Shown here in pieces: positions 15,209 to 61,216 of a stretch of 64,000 nt of DNA. The translations under genes were made by a program, and so were the position numbers. Under the pieces are notes generated by a model that was not told where the DNA came from, made no database searches, and saw only the letters and a program-made list of their open reading frames with translations. How positions within the stretch are numbered: the first letter of the stretch is position 1; each line of letters starts with the position of its first letter. The stretch is from an uncultured Micavibrio sp. (GTDB taxonomy: Bacteria > Pseudomonadota > Alphaproteobacteria > Micavibrionales > UBA2020): NCBI GenBank assembly GCA_964575605.1, contig CAZNRN010000008.1, forward strand, positions 47,918-111,917, given 5' to 3'.

Positions 15209-16810
<1,602 letters not shown>

Positions 16811-16813
16811 AGT

Positions 16814-36948: not shown

Positions 36949-36956
36949 GCAGCCTT

Positions 36957-38141: not shown

Positions 38142-38142
38142 G

Positions 38143-40071: not shown

Positions 40072-40206
40072 ACCACTCTTTTTTAATTAAATCAGGTAGT
40101 TACTTCTTTTTCGGTGACTCTATATGATTTTCATAACCAAGTCAATCTGATTATGGTATATTGCCAGCCGAGAGTGATTCACCCCGCTATATAATAGGCT
40201 TACATA

Positions 40207-46915: not shown

Positions 46916-47836
46916 ATGCGCGCCATCGTCAAAAACAAAAATTCATTGGGTGTACAAAACATCCCCGCCCCGCTACTCACCGCTGACACCGACGTGATTA
47001 TCGAGGTGAAACTGGCGGGGCTTTGCCGCACCGACGTCTTCGTGGCGGAGGGGCGCATCCCCTGCAAGGAAACCCTTGTCCTCGGCCACGAATTTTCGGG
47101 CGTCGTGGTGCAGGCAGGCAGCGATGCCGATTTTTCCCAAGGCGACCGCGTGACGGCCATGCCCGTGCTGCCCTGTTTCGCCTGCGAGCGCTGCGACGCG
47201 GGCCGCGCCGACCAGTGCCAGAGAACCACCATGCTGGGCATCGACGTTGACGGCGCCTTTGCCGAGCGCGTGGCCGTGCCCGCGACCGCCGTCTACAAAA
47301 TTCCCGATACCATGTCCTACCGCCTTGCCGCCTATGCCGAGCCTGTGGCGGCCGCGCTGTCGGTGATGAAATCGGGCATCGAAAAATCGCAGCGCGGCGT
47401 GATTTACGGCAACAACCGCTTCAGCCACCTGATATTGCGCATCATGCGCGCCTATGATTTCAAAAACGTCACCATTCACGACCCGAAAACGGCGGTGCTG
47501 CAGGAATCGCGCTATGATTTTGCCGTTGAAACGCTGGCCGCCAATCAAACCATGAGCGAATTGATGACCGCCGTGAAACCCGGCGGCCGCATCGTGCTGA
47601 AAAGCCGCAAGCATGAACCCGTTGGAATTTGTTTTGCCGAGGCGGTGCGCAAGGAAATCACCTTCACCGCCGTCAACTATGGCGAATTCGGCGAGGCGAT
47701 CCGCTTGATGGCCGAGGGGTTGATTGCAGTGGATGATTTATTGGGCGAGGAATACGGCCTTGGCGATTACGCCACAGTGTTCGAGCGTTCAAAAACGCTG
47801 GAAACCCGCAAGGTTTTCTTCAACCCGGAGAAATAA
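46916..47836 (+). CDS. zinc-dependent MDR alcohol dehydrogenase-like protein
   Basis: GLCRTDVFV, GHEFSGVV and the Cys cluster CFACERCDAGRADQC (structural Zn). Confidence 0.8.
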   Translation: MRAIVKNKNSLGVQNIPAPLLTADTDVIIEVKLAGLCRTDVFVAEGRIPCKETLVLGHEFSGVVVQAGSDADFSQGDRVTAMPVLPCFACERCDAGRADQCQRTTMLGIDVDGAFAERVAVPATAVYKIPDTMSYRLAAYAEPVAAALSVMKSGIEKSQRGVIYGNNRFSHLILRIMRAYDFKNVTIHDPKTAVLQESRYDFAVETLAANQTMSELMTAVKPGGRIVLKSRKHEPVGICFAEAVRKEITFTAVNYGEFGEAIRLMAEGLIAVDDLLGEEYGLGDYATVFERSKTLETRKVFFNPEK

Positions 47837-47837
47837 C

Positions 47838-49751
47838 ATGTGCGGCATCACCGGCATCGTCTCGGCATCTCGCCCCGCAGGCATGGAACAGCTGAAACGC
47901 GGCACCGACGCGCTGGTCCACCGCGGCCCGGACGGCGAGGGTTTTTATATCGCCGCCAATAAAACGGCTGCCCTCGGCCACCGCCGCCTGTCGATCGTCG
48001 ACCTGTCGACCGGCAGCCAGCCGATTTCCAGCGAAGACGGCCGCAAGCACATCGTCGTTAACGGCGAATTCTACGGTCACGCCGACATCCGCCGCGGCCT
48101 TGAAGCACTCGGGCATGTTTTCAAGACAAAGTCCGACAGCGAGATTGCGCTGCACCTGTACGAGGAATACGGCACAGCCTGCCTCGAACACCTGCGCGGC
48201 GAATTCGCCTTTATCCTCTGGGACGAAGACAAGCAGATGCTGTTCGCCGCGCGCGACCGTTTTGGCATCAAGCCGCTGTGCTATACCCAATATAACGGCC
48301 AGTTACTGCTGGCATCCGAGGCGAAAGCCCTGTTTGCCATGGGCGCGCCCGCGGCCTGGGACGATTACAGCTTTTTCCACGCCGCCCAGCTGCAATACAC
48401 GCCGCAGGACCGCACGCTGTTTAAAAACATTTTCCAGCTGAAGCCCGGCCATGCGCTGGTGGCCAAGGGCGGCCGCACCGAAACCTTTAAATACTGGGAC
48501 CTTGATTTCCTGCCCGAAGCGCAAACCGATAAAGGCAGCGAAAAAGACCTCATCGACGCCTTCGCAGCGGAACTGGAACAATCCATCCGCCTGCGGCTGA
48601 TGGCCGATGTGCCGGTCTGTTTCCACCTGTCGGGCGGGCTGGACAGCGCAAGCGTGCTCGGCCTGGCCGCCAGCATCACGGGCAAGCAGCTGGATGCCTT
48701 CACCGTCAGCTTCGGGCATGAAGGCTACGACGAACTGCCCATCGCCGAAGAAATGGCCAAGACCCGCGGCGCGCGCCTGCACGCGGTCCACGTAACGCAA
48801 GAGGATTTAGTGCGCGAGCTGCCCGACGCTGTTTATTACGGCGAAGGCCTCGCCATCAACGGCCACCTGGCCGGCAAATACATGCTGAACCGCGCCATCC
48901 GCCGCGCCGGGTTCAAGGTTGCCTTGACGGGCGAAGGCTCTGACGAAATCCTCGCCGGCTATCCGCACCTGCGGCAGGACCTGCTGCGCGCGGAGGCGTC
49001 GAACGACGTCGCCGCCAAAGCCATGGCGAAAATCTACGCCACCAACGGCGCATCGGCCGGGGTACAAATCGCCCTTGGCGCCCAACTACCGACGCAGGCC
49101 GTGAAAGCGGCGCTGGGGTATACCCCCGCCTTCCTCGAGGCCAAGGCCTCGCTGGGTAGCCGCATGTCCGGCGTGCTCTCGGACGGTTTCGCCGCGCAAT
49201 TCACGCGCACCGACAGCTATGCCGAACTGATGGCGGCAACGCCTGTGGCCGAACAGCTGAAAGGCCGCCACCCCGTGAACCAGTCGTCGTGGATATGGGC
49301 GAAGACGGCGCTGGCCAATTACATCCTGCGCACGCTGGGCGACGGGATGGAGATGGCGCAGTCGGTCGAAGGCCGCCTGCCCTTCCTCGACCACAAGCTG
49401 TTCGAAACCGCGCGCCGCCTGCCGCTGGGCCTGAAAATAAAAGGCATGGTGGAAAAATACGTGCTGCGCGAAGCTGCAAAACCCCACATCACCGATACCA
49501 TCTACCGCCGCCAGAAACACCCCTTCATGGCGCCGCCCGTGACGTCGCATGCCAATGCCGCACTGATGGAACTGGTGGGCGATACGCTGCAATCGGCGAG
49601 CTTCGCCGCACTGCCTTTCTTCGACCGCAAGAAAGCGCTGGCAGCCCTGCACGGACTGCCCGCCATGGCAGCGCCGGAGCGCGCCGCGATGGAGCCCGTT
49701 CTGATGACGATGCTGACCGCTAACATGCTGCAACAGGAATTCGGATTATGA
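47838..49751 (+). CDS. asparagine synthetase B-like glutamine amidotransferase
   Basis: Start MCGITGIV (Ntn Cys2), HRGPDGEG and PP-loop HLSGGLDSA. The start was moved from 47724 to 47838, 1 nt after the upstream stop. Confidence 0.85.
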   Translation: MCGITGIVSASRPAGMEQLKRGTDALVHRGPDGEGFYIAANKTAALGHRRLSIVDLSTGSQPISSEDGRKHIVVNGEFYGHADIRRGLEALGHVFKTKSDSEIALHLYEEYGTACLEHLRGEFAFILWDEDKQMLFAARDRFGIKPLCYTQYNGQLLLASEAKALFAMGAPAAWDDYSFFHAAQLQYTPQDRTLFKNIFQLKPGHALVAKGGRTETFKYWDLDFLPEAQTDKGSEKDLIDAFAAELEQSIRLRLMADVPVCFHLSGGLDSASVLGLAASITGKQLDAFTVSFGHEGYDELPIAEEMAKTRGARLHAVHVTQEDLVRELPDAVYYGEGLAINGHLAGKYMLNRAIRRAGFKVALTGEGSDEILAGYPHLRQDLLRAEASNDVAAKAMAKIYATNGASAGVQIALGAQLPTQAVKAALGYTPAFLEAKASLGSRMSGVLSDGFAAQFTRTDSYAELMAATPVAEQLKGRHPVNQSSWIWAKTALANYILRTLGDGMEMAQSVEGRLPFLDHKLFETARRLPLGLKIKGMVEKYVLREAAKPHITDTIYRRQKHPFMAPPVTSHANAALMELVGDTLQSASFAALPFFDRKKALAALHGLPAMAAPERAAMEPVLMTMLTANMLQQEFGL

Positions 49752-50536
49752 CCCCCGACGCACAGGAAAGAACCAAAGCCAGCTGGTGCGAAGATTTCTT
49801 CGACGACCTTTTCGCCGAACACTGCCTTGCAACCCGCACGCCAGACGAGCTGCAGGCCATCACCACCTTCCTGCAGCGTGAGCTGAAACTTGGAACCGGC
49901 GACGCCGTTTTCGACCAGTGCTGCGGCATTGGCACGCTCAGCCTTGCGCTGGCGAAGCGGGGGTTGCGCACCTTTGGCGTCGACCTTATCCCTTCCTACA
50001 TCGACACGGCAAAAAACGCGGCGGTAAAGATGCAGGCCGCCTGCACTTTCGCTGCGGCCGACGCGGCTTTCTATTGCCCACCCGTGCCCTGCGACGCCGC
50101 TATCAACTGGTGGACCAGTTTCGGTTATTTCGAGGACGACGCCGAAAACCTGAAAATGCTGAAAGCCGCGCGCCGCAGCCTGAAGCCCGGCGCGTCCTTT
50201 GCGCTTGATTACATGAACACGCCCGAACGCCTTGCGCTGATGGGCGGCAGGCCCGTGACGTCATGGCGCGCGGAAAAACCCGGCTGCGTCGTCTCCTGCG
50301 ACACCCGCATCGACGGCCGCATGCTGGTCAAGGACTGGAAATACGAAGGCGCGGATAGCAGGAAGGTTGAAAAACGCGGCGGCGGCGTCAAGCTGTACAC
50401 GCAGCAGGAACTCGAAAGCCTGCTGGAGCAGGCCGGTTTCACCGCCGTCCGCTTCTATGGCAGTGTCAAGGGCGAGGCACTGGCCGTCAACAGCCCGCGC
50501 TGCATCGCCATCGCGCAAAACGGCAGTGCGCCATGA
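49748..50536 (+). CDS. class I SAM-dependent methyltransferase
   Basis: Motif I VFDQCCGIGTLSLALA, followed by GVDL and LKPGASF. ATGA overlap on both sides. Confidence 0.8.
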   Translation: MTPDAQERTKASWCEDFFDDLFAEHCLATRTPDELQAITTFLQRELKLGTGDAVFDQCCGIGTLSLALAKRGLRTFGVDLIPSYIDTAKNAAVKMQAACTFAAADAAFYCPPVPCDAAINWWTSFGYFEDDAENLKMLKAARRSLKPGASFALDYMNTPERLALMGGRPVTSWRAEKPGCVVSCDTRIDGRMLVKDWKYEGADSRKVEKRGGGVKLYTQQELESLLEQAGFTAVRFYGSVKGEALAVNSPRCIAIAQNGSAP

Positions 50537-51354
50537 TGCTGCCCTTTCCGCAGGCAGATAACGAAACTTTCCGCCGCGCGGTCTATGCGGGCGGCATCTT
50601 CCGCATACCCGCCACCACGCTTTCGGCGACGTTGGCGGCGGAAGTGATGGAGACGATGGCCGCGTATTTTGGCGCCCCCGGGACCGCGCATGAACGATAT
50701 ACATTTGCTGATATGCAGCCCGCCATGTCCGCTGCCCGCGCGGAGCTGGCGTCGCAACAGCGCTACCGCGATATCCAGTCGCAACTGCTGGCGGCTGCGG
50801 GTTTCACGCCTGATGAGCTTGCCGTCGACGCCTTGCGCCTGCGCTGCGTAATGAATAACGGCCACCTGAACAAGGGCGCGGAACTGGCCTATACCGCCCA
50901 CCGCGATACATGGTACGGCAACCCTCAGGCACAGCTGAATTTCTGGATGGCGCTGCATGACGTGACGCCGGCGCAAAGCTTTACCTTCTATCCCTCGCTC
51001 TTCACCCGACCGGTGGCGAATACATCGCAGGGTTTCAGCTATGCGACGTGGATGGAAAAACGCGGCTGGCAAGGCGCGAAAAGCGACGCGGCGGTGGAAT
51101 ACCCCGTCGTGCTGGAACAGCCGCAAGACACTGCCGCCTTTTCCTTCACGGCCAGTGCCGGCGATATGATCGTCTTTTCGGCCGCGCAACTCCACCAAAC
51201 CGTTAAAAATTCGAGCGGCATCACGCGTTACAGCCTCGATTTCCGCGCCGTGCACCTGGGCGACCACAAGGCAGGTTTGGGCGCGCCCAATGCCGACAAC
51301 GGCTCGCAGCCCGAGGCGCTGAAGGATTACTACACGCCGGGCAGGGCGGCATGA
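50533..51354 (+). CDS. PhyH-like Fe(II)/2-oxoglutarate oxygenase-like protein
   Basis: AHRDTWY (HxD), NFWMALHDV and AGDMIVFSAAQLHQTVKNSSGITRYSLDFR (distal His plus Arg) fit the PhyH/2OG oxygenase facial triad layout. Confidence 0.6.
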   Translation: MMLPFPQADNETFRRAVYAGGIFRIPATTLSATLAAEVMETMAAYFGAPGTAHERYTFADMQPAMSAARAELASQQRYRDIQSQLLAAAGFTPDELAVDALRLRCVMNNGHLNKGAELAYTAHRDTWYGNPQAQLNFWMALHDVTPAQSFTFYPSLFTRPVANTSQGFSYATWMEKRGWQGAKSDAAVEYPVVLEQPQDTAAFSFTASAGDMIVFSAAQLHQTVKNSSGITRYSLDFRAVHLGDHKAGLGAPNADNGSQPEALKDYYTPGRAA

Positions 51355-54300
51355 AAACGCTCTGGCAGCACATGGCGCCTTCCGCGGCCATCGCCATCCG
51401 CGACAATGGCCGCGAGATCAGCTATGCCGAAATGCTCGGCCGCGCCGCCGCGCTGGGTGAAAAGCTGAAGGCACAGGGCGTTACGTCCGAAACCCCGGTT
51501 GCGCTATCGCTGGAGAAATCGGCAGAATACATCATCGCGCTGCTGGCTGTCTGGCATGCGGGCGGGGCTTTTGTCCCGCTGCCGCCATCGCTGCCGGAGG
51601 AACGCCGCAAATTTATTATCGGCGACGCGGGCATCAGGCATTTCATTTCCCGTGAAGACGTAACGGCAGAGACAGCTTCTACCGCGCCTTTCGCTGCGCA
51701 AGCCGGTGCGCTTGCCTATATCATCTATACATCGGGCTCGACGGGCAGGCCCAAGGGCGTGATGGTCGAGCACCGCGGCTTGATGAACCTGTTTTCGGCG
51801 CAGGCGAAAGCTTTCGGCATGAAGGCCGGAAGCCGCTCGCTCTTCTGCCTCTCGGTCAATTTCGACGCTTCGGTGTCGGATATCGGCGTAGCGCTCTATG
51901 CCGGCGCGATGCTGGTGATTGATGGCAGCGACAGGCCCTTGCCGCAGGTGATGCGCACCCATGCCATCACCCATATCGACATGCCGCCCGCGCTGCTGAA
52001 ATCGATGCAGCCTGCCGATATGCCCGACAGCCTTGAAACCATCATTATCGGCGGCGAGGCCTGCCCGCCCGCGACGGTGCGCGACTTTGCCCGGAAATTC
52101 CGCGTCGTCAACGTCTATGGCCCGACCGAGGCGACCGTCTGCACCAGCCTGAATATCTGCGACGCCCAAACCTGGGACAAGCCCCTGATCGGCAACCCGC
52201 TGCCCGATGTCGAGTATGCCGTTATCGACGGTGAGCTGCAAATAGGCGGCGGCATGCTGGCGCGCGGGTATGTCAACCTGCCCGCGCTGACTGCCGAAAA
52301 ATTCATTACACGCGGCGGAAAGCGATTTTACCGCACGGGCGACAGCGTGCGCGAAACGCCGCAGGGGCTTGAATTCCTCGGCCGCATCGACCGCCAGTTC
52401 AAGCTGCGCGGCCAGTTGGTGGAACCGGACGAGGTCGAGGCACAGCTGCGCAGCCATCCGCAGGTGATGAAAGCGGCCGTTATCAAACGCGGCGAACAGC
52501 TGGTCGCCTTCGTCGCGCTGTCCGATAAATCCGCCAAAGCGGGTTTGGCGGACTGGCTGGCGGCACGCTTGCCCGCCTATATGGTGCCGCAGCATTTCGA
52601 GGTCGTTTCGCGCCTGCCATTGACGGTCACCGACAAAATCGATTATGCCGCACTGGCAACCCTGCCGCTGCAGACCGATCGCGCGCGCATCGTTCCCCGT
52701 ACCGAGACCGAAAAAAAGCTCTTCGCCATCTGGCAGGCCGTATTGAAACACGGCGATTTTGGCGTGACCGACGCCTTTTACGCCGCGGGCGGGGATTCGC
52801 TGGGCATTATACGCATGGCGATGGAATCCGAGCGGCAAGGGCTGCCGCTGTCTCCAGAGTTTATCGCGCGGCACATGACTATCGAGGCACAGGCCGCACA
52901 TATGGGGCAGAACGCCAGCGCACTTTCCGCCGCATGGCTGAAAGAAGACGTTGCTTTTTCGAAAGAAGACATTCAGTTGCTGGAAAAGGCTGCGCAGCGC
53001 CCCGCTACCCCTGCAAAACTTGAAAATATCCTGCTGACCGGCGCAACGGGTTTCCTCGGCTCGCGCGTATTGTGTGAATTGCTGGCGCAGACGAAGGCCA
53101 CCGTTTACTGCCTTGTGCGCGCACCCGATGCAGCCGGCGCGTTGCAGCGCATGATCGACGCGGCGGCGAAATTCGCCGTGCCCGCGACAGACTGGTCGCG
53201 CGTAGTGCCCGTCACCGGCGACCTGACGCAGCCATGCGGCGGACTGGACGCCGCCGCATGGCAAAGCCTTGCCGATAATATTGACGCCATTTACCACTGC
53301 GCCGCCTGCGTCAATATGGTGCTGCCCTATGCCGATATGCGGGCGGCGAATACGGGCGCGGCGCTCGAACTGCTGCGCCTTGCCGCTACGGGCAAACGCA
53401 AATCGCTGCATTACGCTTCGACCCTGTCGGTTTTCGTTGCGACGGACCAGAACACCGGCACATTGCTGGAAAGCGACCGCCTTGAAAACGTCACCACCGT
53501 TTACGGCGGCTATGCCCAGACGAAATTCGCAGCGGAATGGATGCTATTGCAGGCGCCGCATGAGGCCGTGCCTGTATCGCATTACAGGTTGGGATTGATT
53601 ACCGGCGATACAGTAACGGGCGCGGCTTCGGCCACCGATTTCCTCGCGCTGTTCTTCAAGGGCGCGCGCGAGCTGGGCGCTATGCCGGAAGAGGCGTTGA
53701 AAACCCTCTCGGTCGATATCACGCCGCTCGATTACGCCGCAAAAGCGCTGGTTTCCCTCTCCCTGGGCGGCAGGCCCGATGTTTACCACATCGCAGGCAA
53801 GGGCGTGACGCTGGAGCAGCTGGTGAAGCCGCTGAACCTGCGCGCCCTGCCGAAAACCCGCTGGCTGGAGATGATGCGCAACAAGCCGCTGGGCATGGAA
53901 GAAACCGCGGCCGCCCTGTCGCTCTGCCGCATCTTCGGCGACGCGGAATTTTCGCGCCACCGCACCATGGACCTGTTTCAGGCGACCAGCGTTATCTTTG
54001 ATACCCGCAATACAGATGCCGTCCTAGATTTCACCTGCCCGCCTGCGGATGAAAAACTGATTTCGCTTTATGCCGCGCAATCGCTGAAAGGCGCGCCGCG
54101 CGTGAAAATCTGCCTTTTCGGGCCGGAGTCGACGGGCAAGTCGACGCTGGCGGAAAAGCTGGCGGGGCATTACAAGGCGGCCTTCGTGCCCGAATACGCC
54201 AAGCAGCATATCGCGGCCAATGACGGCGATATCGGCTATGACGATATCCCGAAAATCGCGGCGGGACAGGCAAAGGCGGAATCGGCTGCGAAAACCGCAC

Positions 54301-54617
54301 CGCTGCTGTTCTGTGATACCGACCTGATCACCACCACGATCTGGAGCGACTGGCTGTTCCGCGACTGCCCGCAGTGGGTGCGTGACGCGGCCGAGGCCTC
54401 GCGCTATGACCTTTATTTGCTGATGGATGTCGATACGCCCTGGGTGGCCGATATCCACCGCTACCTGCCCGAAGACCGCGCGAATTTTCTCGCCCGCTGC
54501 GAAGACGAATTGCGCGCCCGCGGACTGCGGTATATAAAGCTGTCGGGCAGCTGGGACGATAAATTCAAAAACGCCTGCGCCGAAGTCGAGAAGGTCAGAG
54601 GAGAAAAACATGCTTGA
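51351..54617 (+). CDS. NRPS-like adenylation - PCP - thioester reductase fused to a NadR-type P-loop kinase (AAA_28-like) domain
   Basis: A domain: YIIYTSGSTGRPKGV, FDASVSD, YGPTE and YRTGD. PCP: GGDSLG (~52791). R domain: LLTGATGFLGSRV (~53031) and YAQTK. C-terminal ~175 aa: ICLFGPESTGKSTLAEKLA...FCDTDLITT...LLMDVDTPWVAD, which aligns by eye with the E. coli NadR ribosylnicotinamide kinase domain. Confidence 0.85.
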   Translation: MKTLWQHMAPSAAIAIRDNGREISYAEMLGRAAALGEKLKAQGVTSETPVALSLEKSAEYIIALLAVWHAGGAFVPLPPSLPEERRKFIIGDAGIRHFISREDVTAETASTAPFAAQAGALAYIIYTSGSTGRPKGVMVEHRGLMNLFSAQAKAFGMKAGSRSLFCLSVNFDASVSDIGVALYAGAMLVIDGSDRPLPQVMRTHAITHIDMPPALLKSMQPADMPDSLETIIIGGEACPPATVRDFARKFRVVNVYGPTEATVCTSLNICDAQTWDKPLIGNPLPDVEYAVIDGELQIGGGMLARGYVNLPALTAEKFITRGGKRFYRTGDSVRETPQGLEFLGRIDRQFKLRGQLVEPDEVEAQLRSHPQVMKAAVIKRGEQLVAFVALSDKSAKAGLADWLAARLPAYMVPQHFEVVSRLPLTVTDKIDYAALATLPLQTDRARIVPRTETEKKLFAIWQAVLKHGDFGVTDAFYAAGGDSLGIIRMAMESERQGLPLSPEFIARHMTIEAQAAHMGQNASALSAAWLKEDVAFSKEDIQLLEKAAQRPATPAKLENILLTGATGFLGSRVLCELLAQTKATVYCLVRAPDAAGALQRMIDAAAKFAVPATDWSRVVPVTGDLTQPCGGLDAAAWQSLADNIDAIYHCAACVNMVLPYADMRAANTGAALELLRLAATGKRKSLHYASTLSVFVATDQNTGTLLESDRLENVTTVYGGYAQTKFAAEWMLLQAPHEAVPVSHYRLGLITGDTVTGAASATDFLALFFKGARELGAMPEEALKTLSVDITPLDYAAKALVSLSLGGRPDVYHIAGKGVTLEQLVKPLNLRALPKTRWLEMMRNKPLGMEETAAALSLCRIFGDAEFSRHRTMDLFQATSVIFDTRNTDAVLDFTCPPADEKLISLYAAQSLKGAPRVKICLFGPESTGKSTLAEKLAGHYKAAFVPEYAKQHIAANDGDIGYDDIPKIAAGQAKAESAAKTAPLLFCDTDLITTTIWSDWLFRDCPQWVRDAAEASRYDLYLLMDVDTPWVADIHRYLPEDRANFLARCEDELRARGLRYIKLSGSWDDKFKNACAEVEKVRGEKHA

Positions 54618-55716
54618 ACGCACCGCCGAAATCGTCGAGGGCATCGAAAGCGAATTCGTGGGGCACGGCCTCGCCTTCGGCAAGTTCATGCCGCCCACCA
54701 ACGGGCATATCTACTTTCTCAACTTTGCCCGGAAATCATGCCGAAAGCTGACCATCCTCGTCTGCTCGCTGCCGACCGAACCCATCCCGGGTGAGCAGCG
54801 TTACAAATGGATCAAGGAGCTGTTCCCCGACTGCAACGTCGTGCACCATTACATCGACATCCCGCAGGAGCCCAAGGGCCCCGGCGACATCGCGTTTTTC
54901 GAGACATGGCGCGACAGTATCCACAAGCACTGCCCCGGCGAAACCTTCGACGCGCTTTTCGCGTCGGAATCCTACGGCTATAACGTCGCGAAAATCATGG
55001 ATATCAAATTCGTGCCCGTCGACGTCAAGCGCGACCTGGTGCAGATATCGGGCACCGCCATGCGTGACAACCCCTTGCAGCATTGGGAACACCTGCACCC
55101 CGTCGTGCGCCCCTATTTCCTGAAGCGCATCGCCGTGGTCGGCCCTGAATCGACCGGCAAATCGATGCTGGCGAAAAACCTGGCCGCGCATTTCGGCACG
55201 GTGCATGTCGGCGAATACGCCCGCGCCATGCTGACCGATTACGCGGCGAACATCCCGGGCTTCGATGTGTCCAAACCAACGCTGCGCGATTTTTCGACCA
55301 TTGCGCGCGGGCAGGTGGCGTCGGAGGAATCTTTATCCCGTCAAGCCAACCGTTTACTGGTCTGCGACACCGAGCTTGCCACCACCGCCTATTGGGCGCG
55401 GCATTTCTTTGGGCAATGCCCGCACTGGATCGAAAAAGCGGCTGAGGCGCGGAAATACGACCTTTACATGCTGCTCGACCCCCGCGGCATCGAAAAACAC
55501 TATGCCGATGACGCACTGCGCTTTATGCCGAAGCTGGAGGACCGTATTGCCATGTTCGACTGGTGGAAGGCGGAGCTGACCCGCCGCGGCCTGCCCTATG
55601 CCGTGATATCGGGCGATGACTGGCGCGCAAGGTTCCAGCAGGCCGTCGTCGCCGTCTACCAGAATATCCCCGGCATGATTTCGGCCGAAGGCGCAAGACT
55701 TGGCAGTGCCGCCTGA
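54610..55716 (+). CDS. NadR-family bifunctional NMN adenylyltransferase / ribosylnicotinamide kinase homolog lacking the HTH domain
   Basis: FGKFMPPTNGHIYFLNFA resembles E. coli NadR FGKFYPLHTGHIYLIQRA. ISGTAMRDNP is present. The kinase domain reads VVGPESTGKSMLAKNLA...VCDTELATT. 8-nt overlap (ATGCTTGA) with the upstream gene. Confidence 0.8.
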   Translation: MLERTAEIVEGIESEFVGHGLAFGKFMPPTNGHIYFLNFARKSCRKLTILVCSLPTEPIPGEQRYKWIKELFPDCNVVHHYIDIPQEPKGPGDIAFFETWRDSIHKHCPGETFDALFASESYGYNVAKIMDIKFVPVDVKRDLVQISGTAMRDNPLQHWEHLHPVVRPYFLKRIAVVGPESTGKSMLAKNLAAHFGTVHVGEYARAMLTDYAANIPGFDVSKPTLRDFSTIARGQVASEESLSRQANRLLVCDTELATTAYWARHFFGQCPHWIEKAAEARKYDLYMLLDPRGIEKHYADDALRFMPKLEDRIAMFDWWKAELTRRGLPYAVISGDDWRARFQQAVVAVYQNIPGMISAEGARLGSAA

Positions 55717-55733: not shown

Positions 55734-56234
55734 GTGGAGGTCCCCATGCGCCAGCGCCGTTCTGCCGGAAAATTCTTTTTTCAGCGATTGCTGATTATCG
55801 GCCTTATCATCGTCTTTGGCGCGCCTGCCGCGCTGAAGGAAATGGCGACGCTGAACCCGCTCGACCCCACGGGCCGCGTCGACAGCTATCGCGCCGCAGC
55901 CGCGCCGCGCCTGCCCGACAGCCGCCGCATCCATATCCTCTATGGCGACGACCACGGCGGCGGGCACCTGCATGGCGTGAACAGGCCCTGCAAATCCGAA
56001 TTTCCCGCCGACTGGAGCGAAAAAGACATCGTGGCCTCCGTCAAGGCAATCGCCGCCAACGACAACCTCGGCTGGCAGCGGCAGAAAAACGGGAATGTGG
56101 TGGCAGACACAGTCGACCATGGCGTGAAAATCCGCGTCGTGCTGAACAGCGACCTGACCGAAATCGTCACGGCCTATCCGCTGTCGACGCCGCGCAACGC
56201 CTGCCCGGCCGCCAACGACAACGAAAAAGATTAA
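55734..56234 (+). CDS. membrane-anchored/exported EndoU_bacteria-like nuclease-domain protein
   Basis: N-terminal hydrophobic helix FFFQRLLIIGLIIVFGAPAAL. Then HILYGDDHGGGHLHG...CKSEFPADWSEKDI...GVKIRVVLNSDLTEIVTAYPL, which matches my recollection of the bacterial EndoU toxin-domain profile. The alternative ATG start is at 55746. Confidence 0.65.
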   Translation: MEVPMRQRRSAGKFFFQRLLIIGLIIVFGAPAALKEMATLNPLDPTGRVDSYRAAAAPRLPDSRRIHILYGDDHGGGHLHGVNRPCKSEFPADWSEKDIVASVKAIAANDNLGWQRQKNGNVVADTVDHGVKIRVVLNSDLTEIVTAYPLSTPRNACPAANDNEKD

Positions 56235-57241
56235 ACTTCGTCCTTATAGGGATGCGTCACGCCGTTGAAGTCGGTGACGTCGTAACCGTCTCCGTTTTCT
56301 GCGATGCGGGCGGCGCCTGCCGGCACCTTGCCGTGGCCGCCCGGGATATCCAGCATATAATGCGGCTGAGCGATGCCCGACAGCCTGCCAAGCAGCGAAG
56401 ACACCAGCGCGCGCCCCTCTTTCAGCGTCACGCGGAAGTGCGAAGTACCCGGCGCCATATCGGGATGGTGCAGGTAATAGGGCTTTACCTTCATCGCCGT
56501 AAAGGCGCGGAACAGCTGTTCCAGCACGCCCGCGTCATTATTGACGCCCTTCAGCAACGTGGATTGAGATAATAACGGTATGCCCGCCGCGATAAATTTC
56601 TGCGCCGCCGCCTTGACCGTGTCGGTCAGTTCGCGCGGATGGTTGGCGTGGAAGACGACATAGACGGCTTTATCGGACGCCAGCGCCGCGACCAGTTCAT
56701 CGGTCACGCGCGAGGGGTCGGCCACCGGCACGCGCGTGTGGTAACGCACCACCTGCACATGCTGCATTTCGTTCAGCGCCACCATGATTTCCGACAGACG
56801 CCGCGGCGACAACACAAACGGGTCGCCGCCCGTGACAATCACTTCCCAGATGGTGGGCGTGTTGCGGATATAGGCCAGCGCCTTCTGCAATTCCTCGCGG
56901 CCCAGCATCTCGCTGCCCGGTCCCACTTTTTCGCGGCGGAAACAGAAGCGGCAATAGACGGCGCAGACATGCACGGGTTTCAGCAGCACGCGGTCCGGAT
57001 AGCGGTGCACGATGCCTTTGACGGGCGAATGCGCGTCGTCGCCGATAGGGTCGGCCAGTTCGCCGGGCGTTGTTTTCAGCTCTTCGGCCGAGGGCAGGTA
57101 TTGCTTCGCAATAGGGTCGGCGGGGTCAGTGGCGTCCACCAGCTCCATCACCTCGTCCGTCACGGCCACGGCATAGCGCTCCATCACCTCTGCGAGGGGA
57201 TCGTCGGGGGAGAGCGTTTTTGCTTGAGGTTTTGTTGCCAT
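56231..57241 (-). CDS. KamA-family radical SAM lysine 2,3-aminomutase-like protein (EpmB/YjeK-like)
   Basis: CAVYCRFCFRRE (CxxxCxxC), VIVTGGDP and YYLHHPD. 336 aa. Confidence 0.85.
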   Translation of the reverse strand: MATKPQAKTLSPDDPLAEVMERYAVAVTDEVMELVDATDPADPIAKQYLPSAEELKTTPGELADPIGDDAHSPVKGIVHRYPDRVLLKPVHVCAVYCRFCFRREKVGPGSEMLGREELQKALAYIRNTPTIWEVIVTGGDPFVLSPRRLSEIMVALNEMQHVQVVRYHTRVPVADPSRVTDELVAALASDKAVYVVFHANHPRELTDTVKAAAQKFIAAGIPLLSQSTLLKGVNNDAGVLEQLFRAFTAMKVKPYYLHHPDMAPGTSHFRVTLKEGRALVSSLLGRLSGIAQPHYMLDIPGGHGKVPAGAARIAENGDGYDVTDFNGVTHPYKDEV

Positions 57242-57381
57242 GTCCCTGCTGCCAATGGCGTTATTATGTAGAGTATTCGGGCGGCAGGGTCAACCATCCC
57301 CAGCTATACCCCTGAATTTACGCTTGCAATCCATTATTTATGTAATATACTGCCCGCCACACATTCCATGGAGAGACCAGT

Positions 57382-57738
57382 ATGAAAGCAACCGAATTCG
57401 CCTATTACCTGCAGGGCTATTTTGAAATCGACGGCAACGACCGCGCGCTGACCAACGCGCAGGCGAAAAAGGTGCTGGAACGCGCCAAGCAGTCCAAGCC
57501 CGATGGCAATGCGCAGGCGCAGTCTTTCGCCGATTACACCGCGGGCGTCCTGTTCCCCGTCACGGTCGAGGACCAGTCGGACAAATTCCTCTCCACCGTC
57601 ACGCGCGAGCTGAAAACGAAACTGAACGACCTCTTCATCCACGCGATCGACCCGAACGTGCCCGGCAACCAGGAACAGCTGCGCAACACGCACCGCCCCG
57701 ACCGTCCGGGCGGCGGCCGCATTGAAGCAATGTGTTAA
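57382..57738 (+). CDS. hypothetical protein (118 aa), paralog pair member 1
   Basis: It shares an N-terminal motif with the next ORF: EF...L.GYFE.....D..L...QA. Confidence 0.55.
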   Translation: MKATEFAYYLQGYFEIDGNDRALTNAQAKKVLERAKQSKPDGNAQAQSFADYTAGVLFPVTVEDQSDKFLSTVTRELKTKLNDLFIHAIDPNVPGNQEQLRNTHRPDRPGGGRIEAMC

Positions 57739-57745
57739 TACGGCG

Positions 57746-57982
57746 ATGACCAACGCCGAATTCCGCGTCTGGCTGACAGGCTATTTCGAACTGGCCGACG
57801 GCGACACCCCGCTGAACGCGCAGCAGGCGCTGGTGATCATCAACCACCTGAACCTGGCCGAAGCGGTCGAGGGCAAGCTGGACGCGCAGAACGACAATAT
57901 CCGCAACACCCTGCGCAGCTTCATCCAGAATAATTCCGATGCCGCCGATGTCACCGCGCGCGTGCAGGGATTGCTGACGTGA
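57746..57982 (+). CDS. hypothetical protein (~79 aa), paralog pair member 2
   Basis: MTNAEFRVWLTGYFELADGDTPLNAQQALVI parallels TEFAYYLQGYFEIDGNDRALTNAQAKKV in the preceding ORF. The ORF track starts at 57722. Confidence 0.5.
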   Translation: MTNAEFRVWLTGYFELADGDTPLNAQQALVIINHLNLAEAVEGKLDAQNDNIRNTLRSFIQNNSDAADVTARVQGLLT

Positions 57983-58536
57983 AAAACTGCCGCCTTGTCA
58001 TCCCTGCTGTTGCCTATGTGGCCAGCTATGCCGAAGCCTTGAAGGAAGGCCATCGCTGTGGCGCCGACGCCGTGCATGACGACGCCGAGATCGCGGAAAT
58101 CCTTGCCGACCCCGCCGCCTTTATCGCGGAACTGACCGGCCCCAAACCCGCCACCTTTATCGACGAACTGGGCGAGGAAGTGGAGCGCGTGCCCTCGACC
58201 ACCGTCTGGCTGCTGGAAGGAGACACGTTTATCGGCGACGCCGGCATCCGCCACCGCCTCAACGACAAGCTTTTCAAATCGGGCGGAAATATCGGTTACG
58301 GCGTGCGGCCGTCGAAACAGGGCAAGGGTTACGCGACCGAAATGCTGCGCCAGTGCCTTGTCTGGTGCCGTGATAACCTCGGGCTGGAACGCGCGCTTCT
58401 CACGTGCCGCGTCGATAACGAGGCCTCAGCCCGCGTCATGGAAAAAAACGGCGGCGAGCTGATCGATATCACCCCACACCCCTATGCCATTGGAATGATG
58501 CAGAAAAGATACTGGCTGCCCGTTCCGCCCAAATAA
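57979..58536 (+). CDS. GNAT-family N-acetyltransferase
   Basis: IGYGVRPSKQGKGYATEML...VDNEASARVMEKNGGEL is an acetyl-CoA binding core. GTGA overlap with the upstream ORF. Confidence 0.8.
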   Translation: MKNCRLVIPAVAYVASYAEALKEGHRCGADAVHDDAEIAEILADPAAFIAELTGPKPATFIDELGEEVERVPSTTVWLLEGDTFIGDAGIRHRLNDKLFKSGGNIGYGVRPSKQGKGYATEMLRQCLVWCRDNLGLERALLTCRVDNEASARVMEKNGGELIDITPHPYAIGMMQKRYWLPVPPK

Positions 58537-58647
58537 CCCTGCTCCGTGATTTTTCTTTACATAATTCTATATATTTGATACACAATCTGCTCCAAATCCC
58601 TTATTCCGCCTATCGCGGCTGCAGGAACAAGTGTTAAGAAAGCGCGC

Positions 58648-60006
58648 ATGACGACGACCGCACCGAAGAAAAAGAAGAACACCAAAGAACAGGAAGCCCC
58701 GACCGTGGGCATCGTGTCGCTCGGCTGCCCCAAGGCGCTGGTCGATACGGAGCGGATTCTGACGCAGCTGAGATCCGAAGGTTACCAGCTCTCCCCCGAT
58801 TACGCAGGCGCGGACATGGTGATCGTAAACACCTGCGGCTTCCTCGACAGCGCGAAGAAGGAATCGCTGGAGGCCATCGGCGAAGCGATGAGCGCCAACG
58901 GCAAGGTCATCGTGACGGGCTGCATGGGCGCCGAGCCCGAGCAGATTACCAAGGAATTTCCCAAGGTGCTGGCCGTGACCGGCCCGCAGCAGTACGAAGC
59001 CGTGGTCAGCGAAGTGCACAAGGTAGCACCCCCGCCGCACGACCCCTTCGTCGACCTCGTCCCGCCGCAGGGTATCAAGCTGACGCCCCGCCATTATGCG
59101 TATTTGAAGATTTCCGAGGGCTGCAACAACCGTTGCACCTTCTGCATTATCCCTAAGCTACGCGGCGACCTCGTCTCTCGCCCTGTTATTCAGGTGCTGG
59201 CGGAAGCCGAACGCCTTGTGAAGGCGGGCGTGAAGGAAATCCTTGTGATCTCGCAGGATACTTCCGCTTACGGCATCGATACCAAATACCAGGCCTATCC
59301 GTATAAAAACCGTACGGTGCGCACGAAGTTCATCGACCTGTGCAAGGAACTGGGCGAGCTGGGCGTCTGGGTGCGTTTGCACTACGTCTATCCCTATCCG
59401 CATGTGGACGAGGTTTTCGGGTTGATGAACGAGGGCAAGGTCCTGCCCTATATCGACATCCCCTTCCAGCATGCTTCGCCCGCGGTGCTGAAAAACATGC
59501 GCCGCCCCGCGCACCAGGAAAAAACGCTGGAGCGCATCAAAAGCTGGCGCAAGATGTGCCCCGACCTCACCATCCGATCGACCTTCATCGTCGGCTTCCC
59601 CGGCGAAACGGACGCGGATTTCGAATTGCTGCTGCAGTTCATGAAAGAGGCGGAGCTGGAGCGCGTCGGCTGCTTCAAATACGAACCGGTGACGGGCGCC
59701 GATTCAAACAAGATCGAGCCCCACGTCGCGCCCGAAGTGATGGAAGAACGCTACCACCGCTTTATGACGCTGCAGCAGGAAATTTCGGCCAAGAAACTCG
59801 CCGCGAAAATCGGCCGCACCCTGCCCGTGCTGATCGACAGCGTCGGCCAGGAAGGTGCGCTCGGCCGTTCATCCGCCGACGCCCCCGAGATTGACGGCAA
59901 CGTGAAAATCATGAGCAAAAACCTGAAACTCGCCCCCGGCGACCTCGTCAACGTCAAAATCACCGAAGCCGACGAATACGACCTGACCGGCAAGCTGGCG
60001 GTTTAA
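58648..60006 (+). CDS. rimO: ribosomal protein S12 methylthiotransferase
   Basis: [22 protein letters not shown], radical [11 protein letters not shown] and a C-terminal TRAM region. Confidence 0.9.
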
Positions 60007-60560
60007 AAAATCCCGAGGAAACGTTTTCTTTTCGCAGGCGGCTGTGGCTGCGGCGCTTCTACGGGCGCGGGCGCTGCTGCGGGTTGCGGTTGGGGTTTCG
60101 CGGGGAGCAGGAAATCCATTATCTCGGTACGCTTGGCGCTGCGGGCATAGCCATAGGCGGACATGCCGGTGGCGTTTTTGTAGAAGGGGTCGGCGCCTTT
60201 TTCGACCAGCAACTTAGCAACATCCATATGGCCGTGGCCGGCCGCGCCCATCAGGGGCGTGGAATTGATGCGGTTTTTGACCTCGAGCGGGATGCCTTTT
60301 TCCAGCAGGAATTCGACGGCGGCCTTGTGGCCGTACTGCGCCGCGAAAAACAGCGCGGTATTGCCGCAGTCGTCGGTGGCCAGCAGCCTTGCGCCTTTTT
60401 CCAGCTGCGCCTTCAGCGCGGACACATCGCCCCGGCGCGCGGCGTCGAGGTAAGGTTTTTCGAGCACGCCCAGCGCCCTGTCCATCGCGGCATCCGCCTT
60501 ATTGAAGGCGGCGCGCAAGGCGGCCATTTCTTCTTTCACAGCCTTGAATTCATCATCCAT
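60003..60560 (-). CDS. ankyrin-repeat protein with N-terminal coiled coil and P/Q-rich tail
   Basis: [24 protein letters not shown] and [26 protein letters not shown] are ANK repeats. The tail is [20 protein letters not shown]. Confidence 0.8.
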
Positions 60561-60562
60561 GG

Positions 60563-61213: not shown

Positions 61214-61216
61214 GCG

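What the first reader, a model, noticed from the sequence alone, without database searches (positions are those of the whole stretch)
54610..55716. HTH-less NadR homolog overlapping the A-T-R gene; second copy of the kinase domain in the same operon
The 368-aa ORF has both NadR catalytic domains, NMNAT-like FGKFMPPTNGHIYFLNFA and RNK-like VVGPESTGKSMLAKNLA. It lacks the N-terminal DNA-binding domain of enterobacterial NadR. It overlaps the upstream gene by 8 nt. The operon therefore encodes two paralogous RNK-like domains and one NMNAT-like domain. That is hard to explain as ordinary NAD salvage, especially since a complete salvage locus exists 15 kb upstream. Recruitment into a specialised pathway seems more likely (inference).
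Basis: partly seen in the sequence, partly recalled or inferred. Interest (0 to 1): 0.6.

Follow-up and report, generated by a model that had tools for sequence, protein, structure and literature searches.

The report
NadR-type enzyme inside NRPS-like cassette
This gene is a real two-domain relative of the NAD-salvage enzyme NadR, but it belongs to a conserved and apparently undescribed operon built around an amino-acid-reducing NRPS-like enzyme, so it probably makes an NAD-like dinucleotide rather than doing routine NAD salvage.

Summary
ORF 54610-55716 (+) encodes a 368-aa NadR-family protein with no HTH domain. It has an NMN-adenylyltransferase-like half and a ribosylnicotinamide-kinase-like half (K2). 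It overlaps the upstream A-T-R gene by 8 nt, and that gene ends in a second kinase domain (K1).

The gene set ADH / AsnB-like / [MTase / PhyH] / A-T-R / K1 / NadR-like recurs in about 17 non-redundant loci. They come from Micavibrio-like Alphaproteobacteria, Magnetococcales and others, and none carries the NR transporter gene pnuC. About 43 other NadR loci sit beside pnuC.

K1 and K2 are only 38% identical and have different origins. K2 has lost its Walker motifs in one sub-lineage, whereas the adenylyltransferase half is the best-conserved part of the cassette.

In cassette proteins the NMN-binding loop is rebuilt: the tryptophan matching W90 of phage NadR Bas30_86 is always F or Y. However, the same A-T-R, with the same A-domain code DASDIGVVCK, pairs with canonical ~320-aa NadRs in Myxococcota and marine contigs.

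The cassette therefore seems to need one NadR-type kinase and one adenylyltransferase. The upstream "complete salvage locus" has no adenylyltransferase. The product is unknown, and I found no literature on this cassette.

The parts
46916..47836 (+). Zn-dependent alcohol dehydrogenase-like gene (306 aa); first gene of the conserved cassette
   Evidence: Pfam ADH_N 91 bits. Weak NCBIfam matches to threonine 3-dehydrogenase and inosose dehydrogenase. Orthologue present in nearly all cassette loci.
47838..49751 (+). AsnB-like glutamine-dependent amidotransferase (637 aa from ATG 47838; N-terminal MCGI, SGGLDS PP-loop)
   Evidence: TIGR01536 438 bits, above the cut-off of 267; Pfam Asn_synthase plus GATase_7. 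Best solved relative is 7ylz 'hydroxyamidotransferase', E 8e-53. Conserved in almost all cassette loci at 44-84% identity; absent within 8 kb in the Myxococcota locus L088.
49748..50536 (+). SAM-dependent methyltransferase (262 aa); accessory member, absent from some cassettes
   Evidence: Pfam Methyltransf_25/23/31. Present or absent pattern across loci.
50533..51354 (+). PhyH-like Fe(II)/2-oxoglutarate dioxygenase (273 aa; HRD...H motif); accessory member
   Evidence: Pfam PhyH 26.6 bits. Homologue directly upstream of the A-T-R gene in Myxococcota locus L088. No solved relative by sequence.
51351..54062 (+). NRPS-like A-T-R part of the 1088-aa protein: adenylation, carrier (GGDSL) and thioester-reductase (GATGFLG, YxxxK) domains
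   Evidence: AMP-binding 207 bits, PP-binding, NAD_binding_4 189 bits; TIGR01733 325 bits (above cut-off); TIGR01746 235 bits (above cut-off). A-domain code DASDIGVVCK is nearly invariant (only I/V changes at positions 5 and 8) in all 24 cassette A-T-R proteins compared.
54105..54563 (+). K1: RNK-like (AAA_28) kinase domain fused to the C-terminus of A-T-R. Walker A GPESTGKST, Walker B CDTD and lid DTPWVADIHR are all intact.
   Evidence: AAA_28 116.7 bits. Aligns to the RNK half of NadR 8x7f. 38% identical to K2 but 50-55% identical to RNK domains of ~320-aa NadRs. Encoded as a separate 170-183-aa gene in L005/L013 and L018 and in many metagenome proteins.
54610..54617 (+). 8-nt start/stop overlap (ATGCTTGA) between the A-T-R-K1 gene and the NadR-like gene
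   Evidence: Sequence read. The orthologous junctions overlap by 4 nt in L001 and 8 nt in L003.
54610..55104 (+). NMNAT-like (nucleotidyltransferase) domain of the finding's ORF, residues 1-165. TNGH at 54697-54708; ISGTAMR.
   Evidence: It is the most conserved segment of the whole cassette: 88/79/73% identity in L001/L003/L005, against 54-74% for K2 and 40-61% for K1.
54859..54909 (+). Remodelled NMN-binding loop (residues 84-100, IPQEPKGPGDIAFFETW). D93 and F97 replace the aromatic pair Y86/W90 of Bas30_86.
   Evidence: Alignment blocks. Residue mapping to PDB 9X6F numbering, using PMC13464706. The W-to-F/Y change is present in every cassette-type protein and in no pnuC-linked one where the loop could be parsed.
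55105..55716 (+). K2: the ORF's own RNK-like domain (residues 166-368). Walker A GPESTGKS (55141-55164) and Walker B CDTE are intact, but the lid is altered (DPRGIEKHYADDALR; universal W replaced by Y).
   Evidence: AAA_28 116.2 bits. Column comparison with housekeeping RNK domains. Residues matching the Bas30_86 NR site (R167, K168, E230, D275) are kept as K172, R173, E239, D284. Walker A/B and lid are lost in L022, L023, L025, L027, L028 and L037.

Best explanation
The ORF is a dedicated, HTH-less NadR-family paralogue that forms the last gene of a conserved NRPS-like cassette: ADH, AsnB-like amidotransferase, [methyltransferase, PhyH dioxygenase], A-T-R, RNK-type kinase, NMNAT-type adenylyltransferase.

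**Shown**
- The cassette always keeps at least one intact RNK-type kinase and one intact NMNAT-type domain, but the genes that supply them vary.
- In this genome the kinase is most likely K1, which is fused to the reductase. K1 is what remains of a canonical ~320-aa NadR that lost its NMNAT half.
- The adenylyltransferase is the N-terminal domain of this ORF. This second NadR was recruited from a different branch and has a rebuilt NMN-binding loop.
- Its own kinase half (K2) is a redundant copy. It is drifting here and is already dead in a sister lineage.

**Inferred mechanism**
1. The A-T-R module loads an alpha-amino acid. The code DASDIGVVCK is closest to the Gln/Glu or Lys types.
2. It releases the amino acid reductively.
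3. ADH, AsnB, MTase and PhyH tailor the product.
4. The resulting alcohol, either NR-like or an amino alcohol, is phosphorylated by K1 and then adenylylated by this ORF with ATP.
5. The end product is an ADP-linked, NAD-like dinucleotide.

The identity of the substrate and the product is not shown.
For: **It is a real NadR-family enzyme.** Full-length sequence and fold matches to NadR, with catalytic motifs intact.

**The cassette is conserved.**
- It recurs at 40-98% identity with different flanking genes: L001, L003, L005, L008, L010-L012, L015/L018, L022-L028, L037, L078 and L086.
- Start/stop overlaps suggest translational coupling.
- Contexts are mutually exclusive. 17 non-redundant cassette loci have no pnuC. 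43 pnuC-linked loci have no A-T-R.

**The NMNAT half is what matters.**
- It is the most conserved segment of the cassette.
- K2 has lost Walker A/B and the lid in six loci whose NMNAT motifs and K1 remain intact.
- K1 retains the full RNK consensus and groups with ~320-aa NadR RNK domains, not with K2 (38% identity).

**The A-T-R / NadR pairing is old and widespread.**
- The same A-T-R, with an identical A-domain code, is followed by a single canonical NadR in a TARA marine contig and in Myxococcota, plus eight further metagenome loci.
- In a Saccharibacteria contig the cassette, with its own PPTase, abuts a housekeeping-type NadR-NrtR fusion.
- K1 is physically fused to the reductase across more than 40% sequence divergence, which points to consecutive steps.

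**The substrate pocket is altered.** The residues matching Y86/W90, which stabilise NMN in Bas30_86 (PMC13464706), are D93/F97 in all cassette-type proteins.
Against: - No product or activity is known.
- The cassette has no ribosyl- or phosphoribosyl-transferase. An NR-like riboside substrate therefore has no evident source, unless it is NR itself.
- Canonical NadRs (HxGH, EHPxFW loop) serve the same A-T-R in other phyla. The loop change in this ORF is therefore not required for cassette function and may reflect drift or fine-tuning rather than a new substrate.
- K1, K2 and this ORF's NMNAT half retain almost all residues that are conserved in pnuC-linked NadRs, including the mutagenesis-validated RNK residues E230/D275 of Bas30_86. 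This is what one expects if NR and NMN are still the substrates.
- NrtR/Nudix-, NadV- and Prs-type neighbours of relatives fit ordinary NAD homeostasis as well.
- K1 evolves faster than K2 in pairwise comparisons.
- The tree is neighbour-joining without support values.
- The reading of the A-domain code rests on codes recalled from memory.
Confidence: 0.45

Rival explanations
1. Ordinary chemistry in an unusual place. K1 and this ORF still convert NR to NMN to NAD. They sit in the cassette because the cassette is part of NAD homeostasis or depends on it. For example, the A-T-R branch might make or recycle an NAD precursor, or the operon might be under NAD-responsive control. No new dinucleotide is made.
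For: - Canonical NadRs with an unaltered NMN loop are paired with the same A-T-R in L087, L088, L090, L112, L117 and L120.
- NrtR/Nudix-like genes lie directly upstream of the cassette in L117 and L120. In L024 a NadR-NrtR fusion is adjacent.
- The cassette-type relative P0031 lies beside NrtR, NadV and Prs.
- Nearly all family-conserved residues are retained, including the NR-site residues.
- TxGH is catalytically competent in Bas30_86, which has TRGH.
- The window's PncA/PncB/NadE set lacks an adenylyltransferase.
Against: - It does not explain why an NR kinase should be covalently fused to a thioester reductase across wide divergence.
- It does not explain why cassette loci never carry pnuC.
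- It does not explain why the NMN-stabilising W is replaced in every cassette-type protein.
- In L085 a canonical NadR and a cassette-type NadR sit in tandem, which implies non-identical roles.
- NadR-type NMNATs are NMN-specific, so they would not complete the PncB/NadE route, which needs NaMN adenylylation (established knowledge).
Confidence: 0.3
2. Kennedy/CoA-type activation of a non-nucleoside alcohol. The reductase (plus ADH) makes an amino alcohol. K1 phosphorylates it. The NMNAT-like domain forms ADP-amino-alcohol, analogous to LicA/LicC, RibF, HldE or PanK/PPAT. K2 may add a further phosphate, as DPCK does. This is the sub-case of the best explanation in which chemistry has left pyridine ribosides entirely.
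For: - The K1 fusion to the R domain places the kinase directly after alcohol or aldehyde release.
- The cassette has no ribosyl donor enzyme.
- The TNGH motif is identical to that of PPAT (sequence, plus my own knowledge of PPAT).
- The NMN loop is remodelled.
- Foldseek also finds PPAT and phosphoethanolamine cytidylyltransferase folds, at low rank.
Against: - Canonical NadRs do the job in other phyla.
- Residues at the RNK NR site are retained in both K1 and K2.
- K2 is dispensable, so a third step is not general.
- No transferase that would use an ADP-alcohol donor is conserved nearby.
Confidence: 0.2
3. The synteny has no shared chemistry. The ORF is the organism's housekeeping NadR and happens to lie next to an unrelated NRPS-like operon. 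Alternatively, the RNK-like domains act only as ATP/NAD-sensing regulatory modules of the reductase.
For: NadR RNK domains have sensing roles in enterobacteria (established knowledge). No experimental link exists. K1 and K2 evolve relatively fast.
Against: - The pairing recurs in Alphaproteobacteria, Magnetococcales, Saccharibacteria, Myxococcota and unassigned metagenome contigs. Flanks differ, and gene order, overlaps and fusion are preserved.
- The catalytic motifs of K1 and of the NMNAT half are strictly kept, even where K2 decays.
Confidence: 0.05

Closest known systems
HTH-less bifunctional NadR (NMNAT + RNK), e.g. Lactococcus lactis NadR (PDB 6GYE) and phage Bas30_86 of the NARP3 system (PDB 9X6F/9X6H); also the trifunctional E. 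coli / H. influenzae NadR (8X7F, 1LW7)
   Same: - Same two-domain fold, TM 0.7-0.83.
- Same (H/T)xGH and ISxTxxR motifs, and same Walker A/B.
- No HTH, as in L. lactis NadR and Bas30_86 (PMC7221760, PMC13464706).
- Residues matching the RNK site of Bas30_86 are conserved.
   Different: - 21-25% identity to the solved NadRs in the structure-based alignment, and below the TIGR01526 cut-off.
- Never adjacent to pnuC. It is the terminal gene of an NRPS-like cassette instead.
- The NMN loop is lengthened, and the aromatic pair Y86/W90 is replaced by D/F.
- The lid of its kinase half is altered, and a separate kinase (K1) is present.
pnuC-linked ~320-350-aa NadRs of Cyanobacteria, Gammaproteobacteria, Patescibacteria and Bacteroidota (e.g. 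Calothrix P0112, L006/P0038)
   Same: Closest sequence relatives outside the cassette: 48-56% identity over the full length. Almost all family-conserved columns are shared.
   Different: These have HxGH plus an EHPxFW loop and an adjacent NMN_transporter gene. The finding has TNGH plus a GPGDIAFF loop and A-T-R neighbours.
Single-module NRPS-like A-T-R reductases (the MxcG and AusA terminal modules, Lys2-type and carboxylic acid reductases, fungal ATRR glycine-betaine reductase)
   Same: The partner gene has the same A-T-R architecture and the same reductive-release logic.
   Different: The literature searched describes none of these as fused to, or operonic with, an RNK-type kinase or a NadR-type adenylyltransferase.
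Kinase plus nucleotidyltransferase activation pairs (RibF riboflavin kinase/FMN adenylyltransferase, HldE, LicA/LicC, PanK/PPAT/DPCK)
   Same: Same logic: an alcohol becomes a phosphate, then an ADP/NDP-ester. The transferase is of the HxGH type, and the TNGH motif is as in PPAT (my own knowledge).
   Different: The resemblance is in mechanism only. There is no specific sequence relationship beyond the superfamily, and it was not tested.

Membership tests
NadR family bifunctional NMN adenylyltransferase / ribosylnicotinamide kinase | Two-domain architecture: N-terminal Rossmann-like nucleotidyltransferase plus C-terminal P-loop RNK domain | tested here: met
   TIGR01526 covers residues 19-342. 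Full-length phmmer alignments to 8x7f, 9x6f, 1lw7 and 6gye. Foldseek TM 0.79/0.83 to 8x7f.
NadR family bifunctional NMN adenylyltransferase / ribosylnicotinamide kinase | Catalytic motifs: GxFxPx(H/T)xGH and ISxTxxR in the NMNAT half; Walker A GxxxxGK[ST] and Walker B D-T-[DE] in the RNK half | tested here: met
   FGKFMPPTNGH, ISGTAMR, GPESTGKS and CDTE are read directly in the translation.
NadR family bifunctional NMN adenylyltransferase / ribosylnicotinamide kinase | Score above the curated equivalog cut-off (TIGR01526 341 bits; NF005988 201 bits) | tested here: not met
   211.5 and 118.8 bits.
NadR family bifunctional NMN adenylyltransferase / ribosylnicotinamide kinase | NMN-binding loop with the aromatic residues that stabilise the NMN moiety (Y86 and W90 in Bas30_86; W conserved in E. 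coli NadR and in pnuC-linked NadRs) | tested here: not met
   The equivalents are D93 and F97, and the loop is 2 residues longer. F is found in 100% of cassette-clade sequences, against W in 81-98% of pnuC-type sets.
NadR family bifunctional NMN adenylyltransferase / ribosylnicotinamide kinase | RNK NR-site residues (R167, K168, E230, D275 of Bas30_86; E230A and D275A are inactivating) | tested here: met
   K172, R173, E239 and D284 in the ORF, conserved in 87-100% of the clade. The lid tryptophan is replaced by Y.
NadR family bifunctional NMN adenylyltransferase / ribosylnicotinamide kinase | Genomic linkage to NR uptake (pnuC) or the NAD regulon | tested here: not met
   No pnuC homologue in any cassette locus, whereas 43 other NadR loci have one. 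Some relatives have NAD-related neighbours (NrtR, NadV, Nudix).
NadR family bifunctional NMN adenylyltransferase / ribosylnicotinamide kinase | Enzymatic conversion of NR to NMN to NAD | not testable with these tools
   Needs enzyme assays.
Trifunctional enterobacterial NadR (repressor + NMNAT + RNK) | N-terminal HTH DNA-binding domain | tested here: not met
   The alignment to NF005988 starts at model position 66, and only ~16 residues precede the NMNAT domain.
NRPS-like A-T-R reductase (partner gene 51351-54617) | Amino-acid adenylation domain, phosphopantetheine-binding serine, and SDR-type thioester reductase with GxxGxxG and YxxxK | tested here: met
   TIGR01733 at 325 bits and TIGR01746 at 235 bits, both above cut-off. 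GGDSL, GATGFLG and YAQTK are read in the translation. D235 and K517 equivalents are present.
Kinase + nucleotidyltransferase alcohol-activation pairs (Kennedy/RibF/CoA-type logic) | The kinase product is the substrate of the adjacent nucleotidyltransferase, giving an NDP-linked product | not testable with these tools
   Inferred only from domain content, the fusion and the conserved order.

The most novel reading that the evidence does not exclude
The A-T-R / NadR cassette is an undescribed pathway that builds a new NAD-like dinucleotide from an amino acid. The product could be a cofactor, a signal or an antimetabolite.

One chemically plausible route:
1. A Gln/Glu-type residue is released reductively.
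2. Its amino-aldehyde cyclises onto the side-chain amide to give a pyridone-type ring. The precedent is Gln-derived ring formation in indigoidine and minimycin biosynthesis (my own knowledge).
3. The ring is then handled as a nicotinamide surrogate by the NadR-type kinase and adenylyltransferase.

The cassette is enriched in epibiotic predators and episymbionts (Micavibrio-like bacteria, Saccharibacteria). This would fit a role against prey or host NAD metabolism.
Probability: 0.2. Interest if true: 0.85.

Novelty: new variant of a known kind. Interest (0 to 1): 0.62.

Why it matters
NadR is regarded as a pure NAD-salvage and regulation enzyme. Here a distinct NadR subfamily, with a rebuilt NMN-binding loop, is hard-wired to an NRPS-like amino-acid reductase. 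The same reductase is paired with canonical NadRs in other phyla.

That points to an unrecognised link between thiotemplate chemistry and pyridine-nucleotide-type activation. The outcome could be a new route into NAD, an NAD analogue, or an ADP-activated amino-acid derivative. The cassette is small (5-7 genes), widespread in uncultured predators and symbionts, and directly testable by heterologous expression.

It also gives a clean natural example of domain-level displacement. One NadR was reduced to its kinase and fused to the reductase. A second NadR kept its adenylyltransferase while its kinase decays.

Tried and rejected
1. **Recent tandem duplication of the kinase domain.** Rejected. K1 and K2 are 38% identical, and each is 50-56% identical to different pnuC-type NadR groups.
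2. **'Complete salvage locus upstream'.** Rejected. It has NadE-, PncA-, PncB- and Prs-like genes only, and no second NMNAT motif exists in the window.
3. **A shared AsnB + kinase + NadR module linking the A-T-R cassette to the glycosyltransferase / radical-SAM context of P0029 and P0031.** Rejected. The L085 AsnB is only 27% identical to the cassette AsnB.
4. **My interim assumption that all ~320-aa NadRs are housekeeping.** Wrong. Several are A-T-R-linked. This weakened the inference 'changed loop = changed substrate'.
5. **H-to-T in HxGH as a diagnostic.** It is perfect in the genome set but not in the metagenome set. Two pnuC-linked loci there have T, and one A-T-R locus has T with FW. Only the W-to-F/Y change held.
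6. **Residue-level nicotinamide contacts from the L. lactis NadR paper.** The text gives none. The Bas30_86 paper did.
7. **Sequence search of the PhyH-like protein against solved structures.** No meaningful hit.
8. **Promoter/terminator scan.** Fewer sites than in the shuffles, so uninformative.
9. **Six literature searches for any NadR/RNK + NRPS-like/A-T-R link.** None found.
10. **The homologue search with R+K1.** It did not return the fused proteins because of the candidate cap. The frequency of the fusion therefore comes from the loci only.


Full report
**1. The observation**

ORF 54610-55716 (+) is real and encodes 368 aa.
- It matches the NadR NMNAT/RNK model TIGR01526 from end to end at 211.5 bits. 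The curated cut-off is 341.
- Pfam AAA_28 covers residues 173-341.
- It aligns over its full length to four solved NadR proteins, with E 2e-27 to 4e-17.
- An AlphaFold model built on 21 homologues (pLDDT 86.9) superposes on E. coli NadR 8x7f with TM 0.79/0.83. All top Foldseek hits are NadR.

There is no room for an HTH domain. The start codon overlaps the stop of the upstream gene by 8 nt (ATGCTTGA), and GGAG lies upstream. The upstream 1088-aa protein is A-T-R plus a C-terminal AAA_28/RNK-like domain, called K1 here. The ORF's own kinase half is called K2.

**2. The operon**

Six genes run head to tail with overlapping or abutting ends:

| Coordinates | Product |
|---|---|
| 46916-47836 | Zn-ADH-like |
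| 47838-49751 | AsnB-like glutamine amidotransferase |
| 49748-50536 | SAM methyltransferase |
| 50533-51354 | PhyH-like dioxygenase |
| 51351-54617 | A-T-R-K1 |
| 54610-55716 | NadR-like ORF |

The A, T and R domains carry their catalytic motifs. AsnB has the N-terminal Cys and the PP-loop.

**3. The 'complete salvage locus'**

At 33.4-41.3 kb there are NadE-, PncA-, PncB- and Prs-like genes. All are unusually long and score below the family cut-offs. None is an adenylyltransferase. The finding's ORF carries the only GxFxPx[HT]xGH motif in the window.

**4. Conservation of context**

Homologues at 59% identity or more lie in the same cassette, with different flanking genes. Homologues at 55% or less lie next to the NR transporter gene pnuC.

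I scanned one genome per species and classified every locus by tblastn.
- 17 non-redundant loci have the cassette and a cassette-type NadR. They come from Micavibrio-like and other Alphaproteobacteria and from Magnetococcales. One further locus (L086) came from a run assembly.
- 43 non-redundant loci have pnuC.
- No locus has both.

The core of the cassette is ADH, AsnB, A-T-R, K1 and the NMNAT domain. The methyltransferase and PhyH are accessory. A Saccharibacteria contig carries ADH-AsnB-MT-A-T-R-K1, a PPTase, and then a housekeeping-type NadR-NrtR fusion.

**5. The two kinase domains**

K1 and K2 are 38% identical. K1 is 50-55% identical to the RNK halves of ~320-aa NadRs. K2 is 52-56% identical to pnuC-linked ~345-aa NadRs. 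In a neighbour-joining tree K1 sequences, whether fused or free-standing at 170-183 aa, nest among the ~320-aa NadRs, well apart from K2.

K1 keeps the whole RNK consensus. K2 keeps Walker A and a D-T-E Walker B, but its lid is altered: the universal W becomes Y.

In six cassette loci that lack MT and PhyH (L022, L023, L025, L027, L028, L037), K2 has lost Walker A, Walker B and the lid. The NMNAT motifs and K1 are intact there.

Across orthologues the NMNAT half is the most conserved piece of the cassette:

| Locus | NMNAT | K2 | K1 |
|---|---|---|---|
| L001 | 88% | 74% | 61% |
| L003 | 79% | 65% | 61% |
| L005 | 73% | 54% | 40% |

**6. Active-site comparison**

Of the columns that are at least 85% conserved in both pnuC-type sets, nearly all are retained in the cassette clade. 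The exceptions cluster in one loop. EHPxFW becomes G-P-x-D-x-x-F-F, with a 2- or 9-residue insertion.

The Bas30_86 paper (PMC13464706, PDB 9X6F) identifies this loop (P84-G89) as the NMN-binding loop. Y86 and W90 stabilise the NMN moiety. R167, K168, E230 and D275 form the NR site of the RNK half, and the E230A and D275A mutants lose function.

Mapping onto the finding's ORF:
- Y86 corresponds to D93.
- W90 corresponds to F97. It is F in 100% of the cassette clade, and W in 81-98% of the pnuC types and in E. coli NadR.
- The RNK site residues are kept as K172, R173, E239 and D284.

In the genome set every cassette-type protein has TxGH and F[FY], and every pnuC-linked protein has HxGH and FW. 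In the larger metagenome set the H/T rule has exceptions, but the W rule does not.

**7. The decisive complication**

The same A-T-R is followed by a single canonical ~320-aa NadR (HxGH, EHPDFW/ERPDFW) in several places:
- a TARA marine contig, with the order ADH-AsnB-MT-A-T-R-NadR;
- a Myxococcota contig, with the order PhyH-A-T-R-NadR;
- eight further metagenome loci.

Its A-domain code DASD[IV]GV[VI]CK is nearly invariant in all 24 proteins compared. Two of these loci have an NrtR/Nudix-like gene just upstream.

A cassette-type NadR also occurs in tandem with a canonical NadR, beside NrtR, NadV and Prs.

So the old and general association is A-T-R plus NadR-type kinase plus adenylyltransferase. 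The window shows a derived state:
- the original NadR was cut down to its kinase (K1) and fused to the reductase;
- a second NadR from another branch took over adenylyl transfer;
- that second NadR's own kinase is becoming redundant.

'Two RNK domains and one NMNAT domain' is thus a transitional redundancy. It is not evidence that two kinase steps are needed.

**8. Mechanism**

*Shown:* dedicated cassette membership; one kinase plus one adenylyltransferase as the invariant requirement; a remodelled NMN loop in this ORF.

*Inferred:* the A-T-R loads an alpha-amino acid. D235 and K517 equivalents are present, and the code is nearest to the Gln/Glu DA[QK]DLGVVDK or Lys DAESIGSVCK types, which I recalled from memory. 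It releases the amino acid reductively. ADH, AsnB, MT and PhyH tailor it. K1 phosphorylates a primary alcohol, and the ORF adenylylates the phosphate to give an ADP-linked, NAD-like product.

I cannot decide whether the phosphorylated intermediate is NR/NMN itself, an NR analogue, or a non-nucleoside phospho-amino-alcohol.
- Against a riboside analogue: the cassette has no ribosyl donor enzyme.
- Against a non-nucleoside substrate: canonical NadRs serve the same A-T-R, and the NR-site residues are retained.

**9. Novelty**

Six full-text searches found no paper linking NadR, RNK or AAA_28 with an NRPS-like or A-T-R enzyme. The protein itself is a new subfamily of a known family. The cassette appears to be undescribed.

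**10. Caveats**
- The tree has no support values.
- Context counts depend on which loci the pattern scans returned.
It did reproduce the published PheA code DAWTIAAICK at the ten positions.
- The substrate reading of the code is from memory.
- No whole genomes could be inspected for other NAD genes.

Noticed in passing
window 33412-41319: NAD-related genes of odd size: NadE-like 1178 aa, PncA-like 416 aa and PncB-like 642 aa on the minus strand, and Prs-like 370 aa on the plus strand. All score well below their NCBIfam cut-offs, and their extra regions match nothing. No adenylyltransferase is among them.
   Followed up: partly
window 55734-56234 (+): An EndoU-like nuclease ORF (166 aa, Pfam EndoU_bacteria 50 bits) lies immediately downstream of the cassette. 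A homologue also lies a few kb from the cassette in L001.
   Followed up: no
window 56231-60006: KamA/AblA-like radical-SAM aminomutase (minus strand, TIGR03822 485 bits), a GNAT acetyltransferase (57979-58536) and a RimO-like methylthiotransferase (58648-60006). The same trio is syntenic in L001.
   Followed up: no
window 57382-57982 (+): Two tandem, overlapping small ORFs (118 and 86 aa) that look paralogous, sharing 'GYFE.DG...L...Q'. No family was assigned.
   Followed up: no
window 60003-61909 (-): Three consecutive ankyrin-repeat ORFs. The orthologous block in L001 has four. Ankyrin arrays are unusual for free-living bacteria and fit a host- or prey-associated lifestyle.
   Followed up: no
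window 16001-18000: GC drops to 0.50 against about 0.60 elsewhere. This could be foreign DNA.
   Followed up: no
L087 8001-11728; L088 7168-11719; L117 and L120: The same A-T-R (code DASDIGVVCK) is directly followed by a canonical ~320-aa NadR in a marine TARA contig and in a Myxococcota MAG. In L117 and L120 an NrtR/Nudix-like gene sits just upstream of ADH-AsnB-MT-A-T-R-NadR.
   Followed up: partly
L085 2199-15189 (and the P0029 contig): A cassette-type NadR lies in tandem with a canonical 312-aa NadR. On one side are radical SAM, NrtR, NadV and Prs genes. On the other, running divergently, are AsnB-like, UDP-glycosyltransferase, two radical-SAM (one fused to an FkbO-like N-domain) and PIG-L deacetylase genes.
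   Followed up: partly
L044, L053, L059, L060, L067, L070 (Chitinophagaceae and other Bacteroidota): pnuC-NadR loci that carry an extra free-standing AAA_28/RNK-like gene just downstream. A second RNK-like domain next to NadR is therefore not unique to the A-T-R cassette.
   Followed up: no
L024 2271-11572 (Saccharibacteria MAG): A complete ADH-AsnB-MT-A-T-R-K1 cassette with its own PPTase in a reduced-genome episymbiont, next to a 539-aa NadR-NrtR/Nudix fusion. This is probably horizontal transfer.
   Followed up: partly
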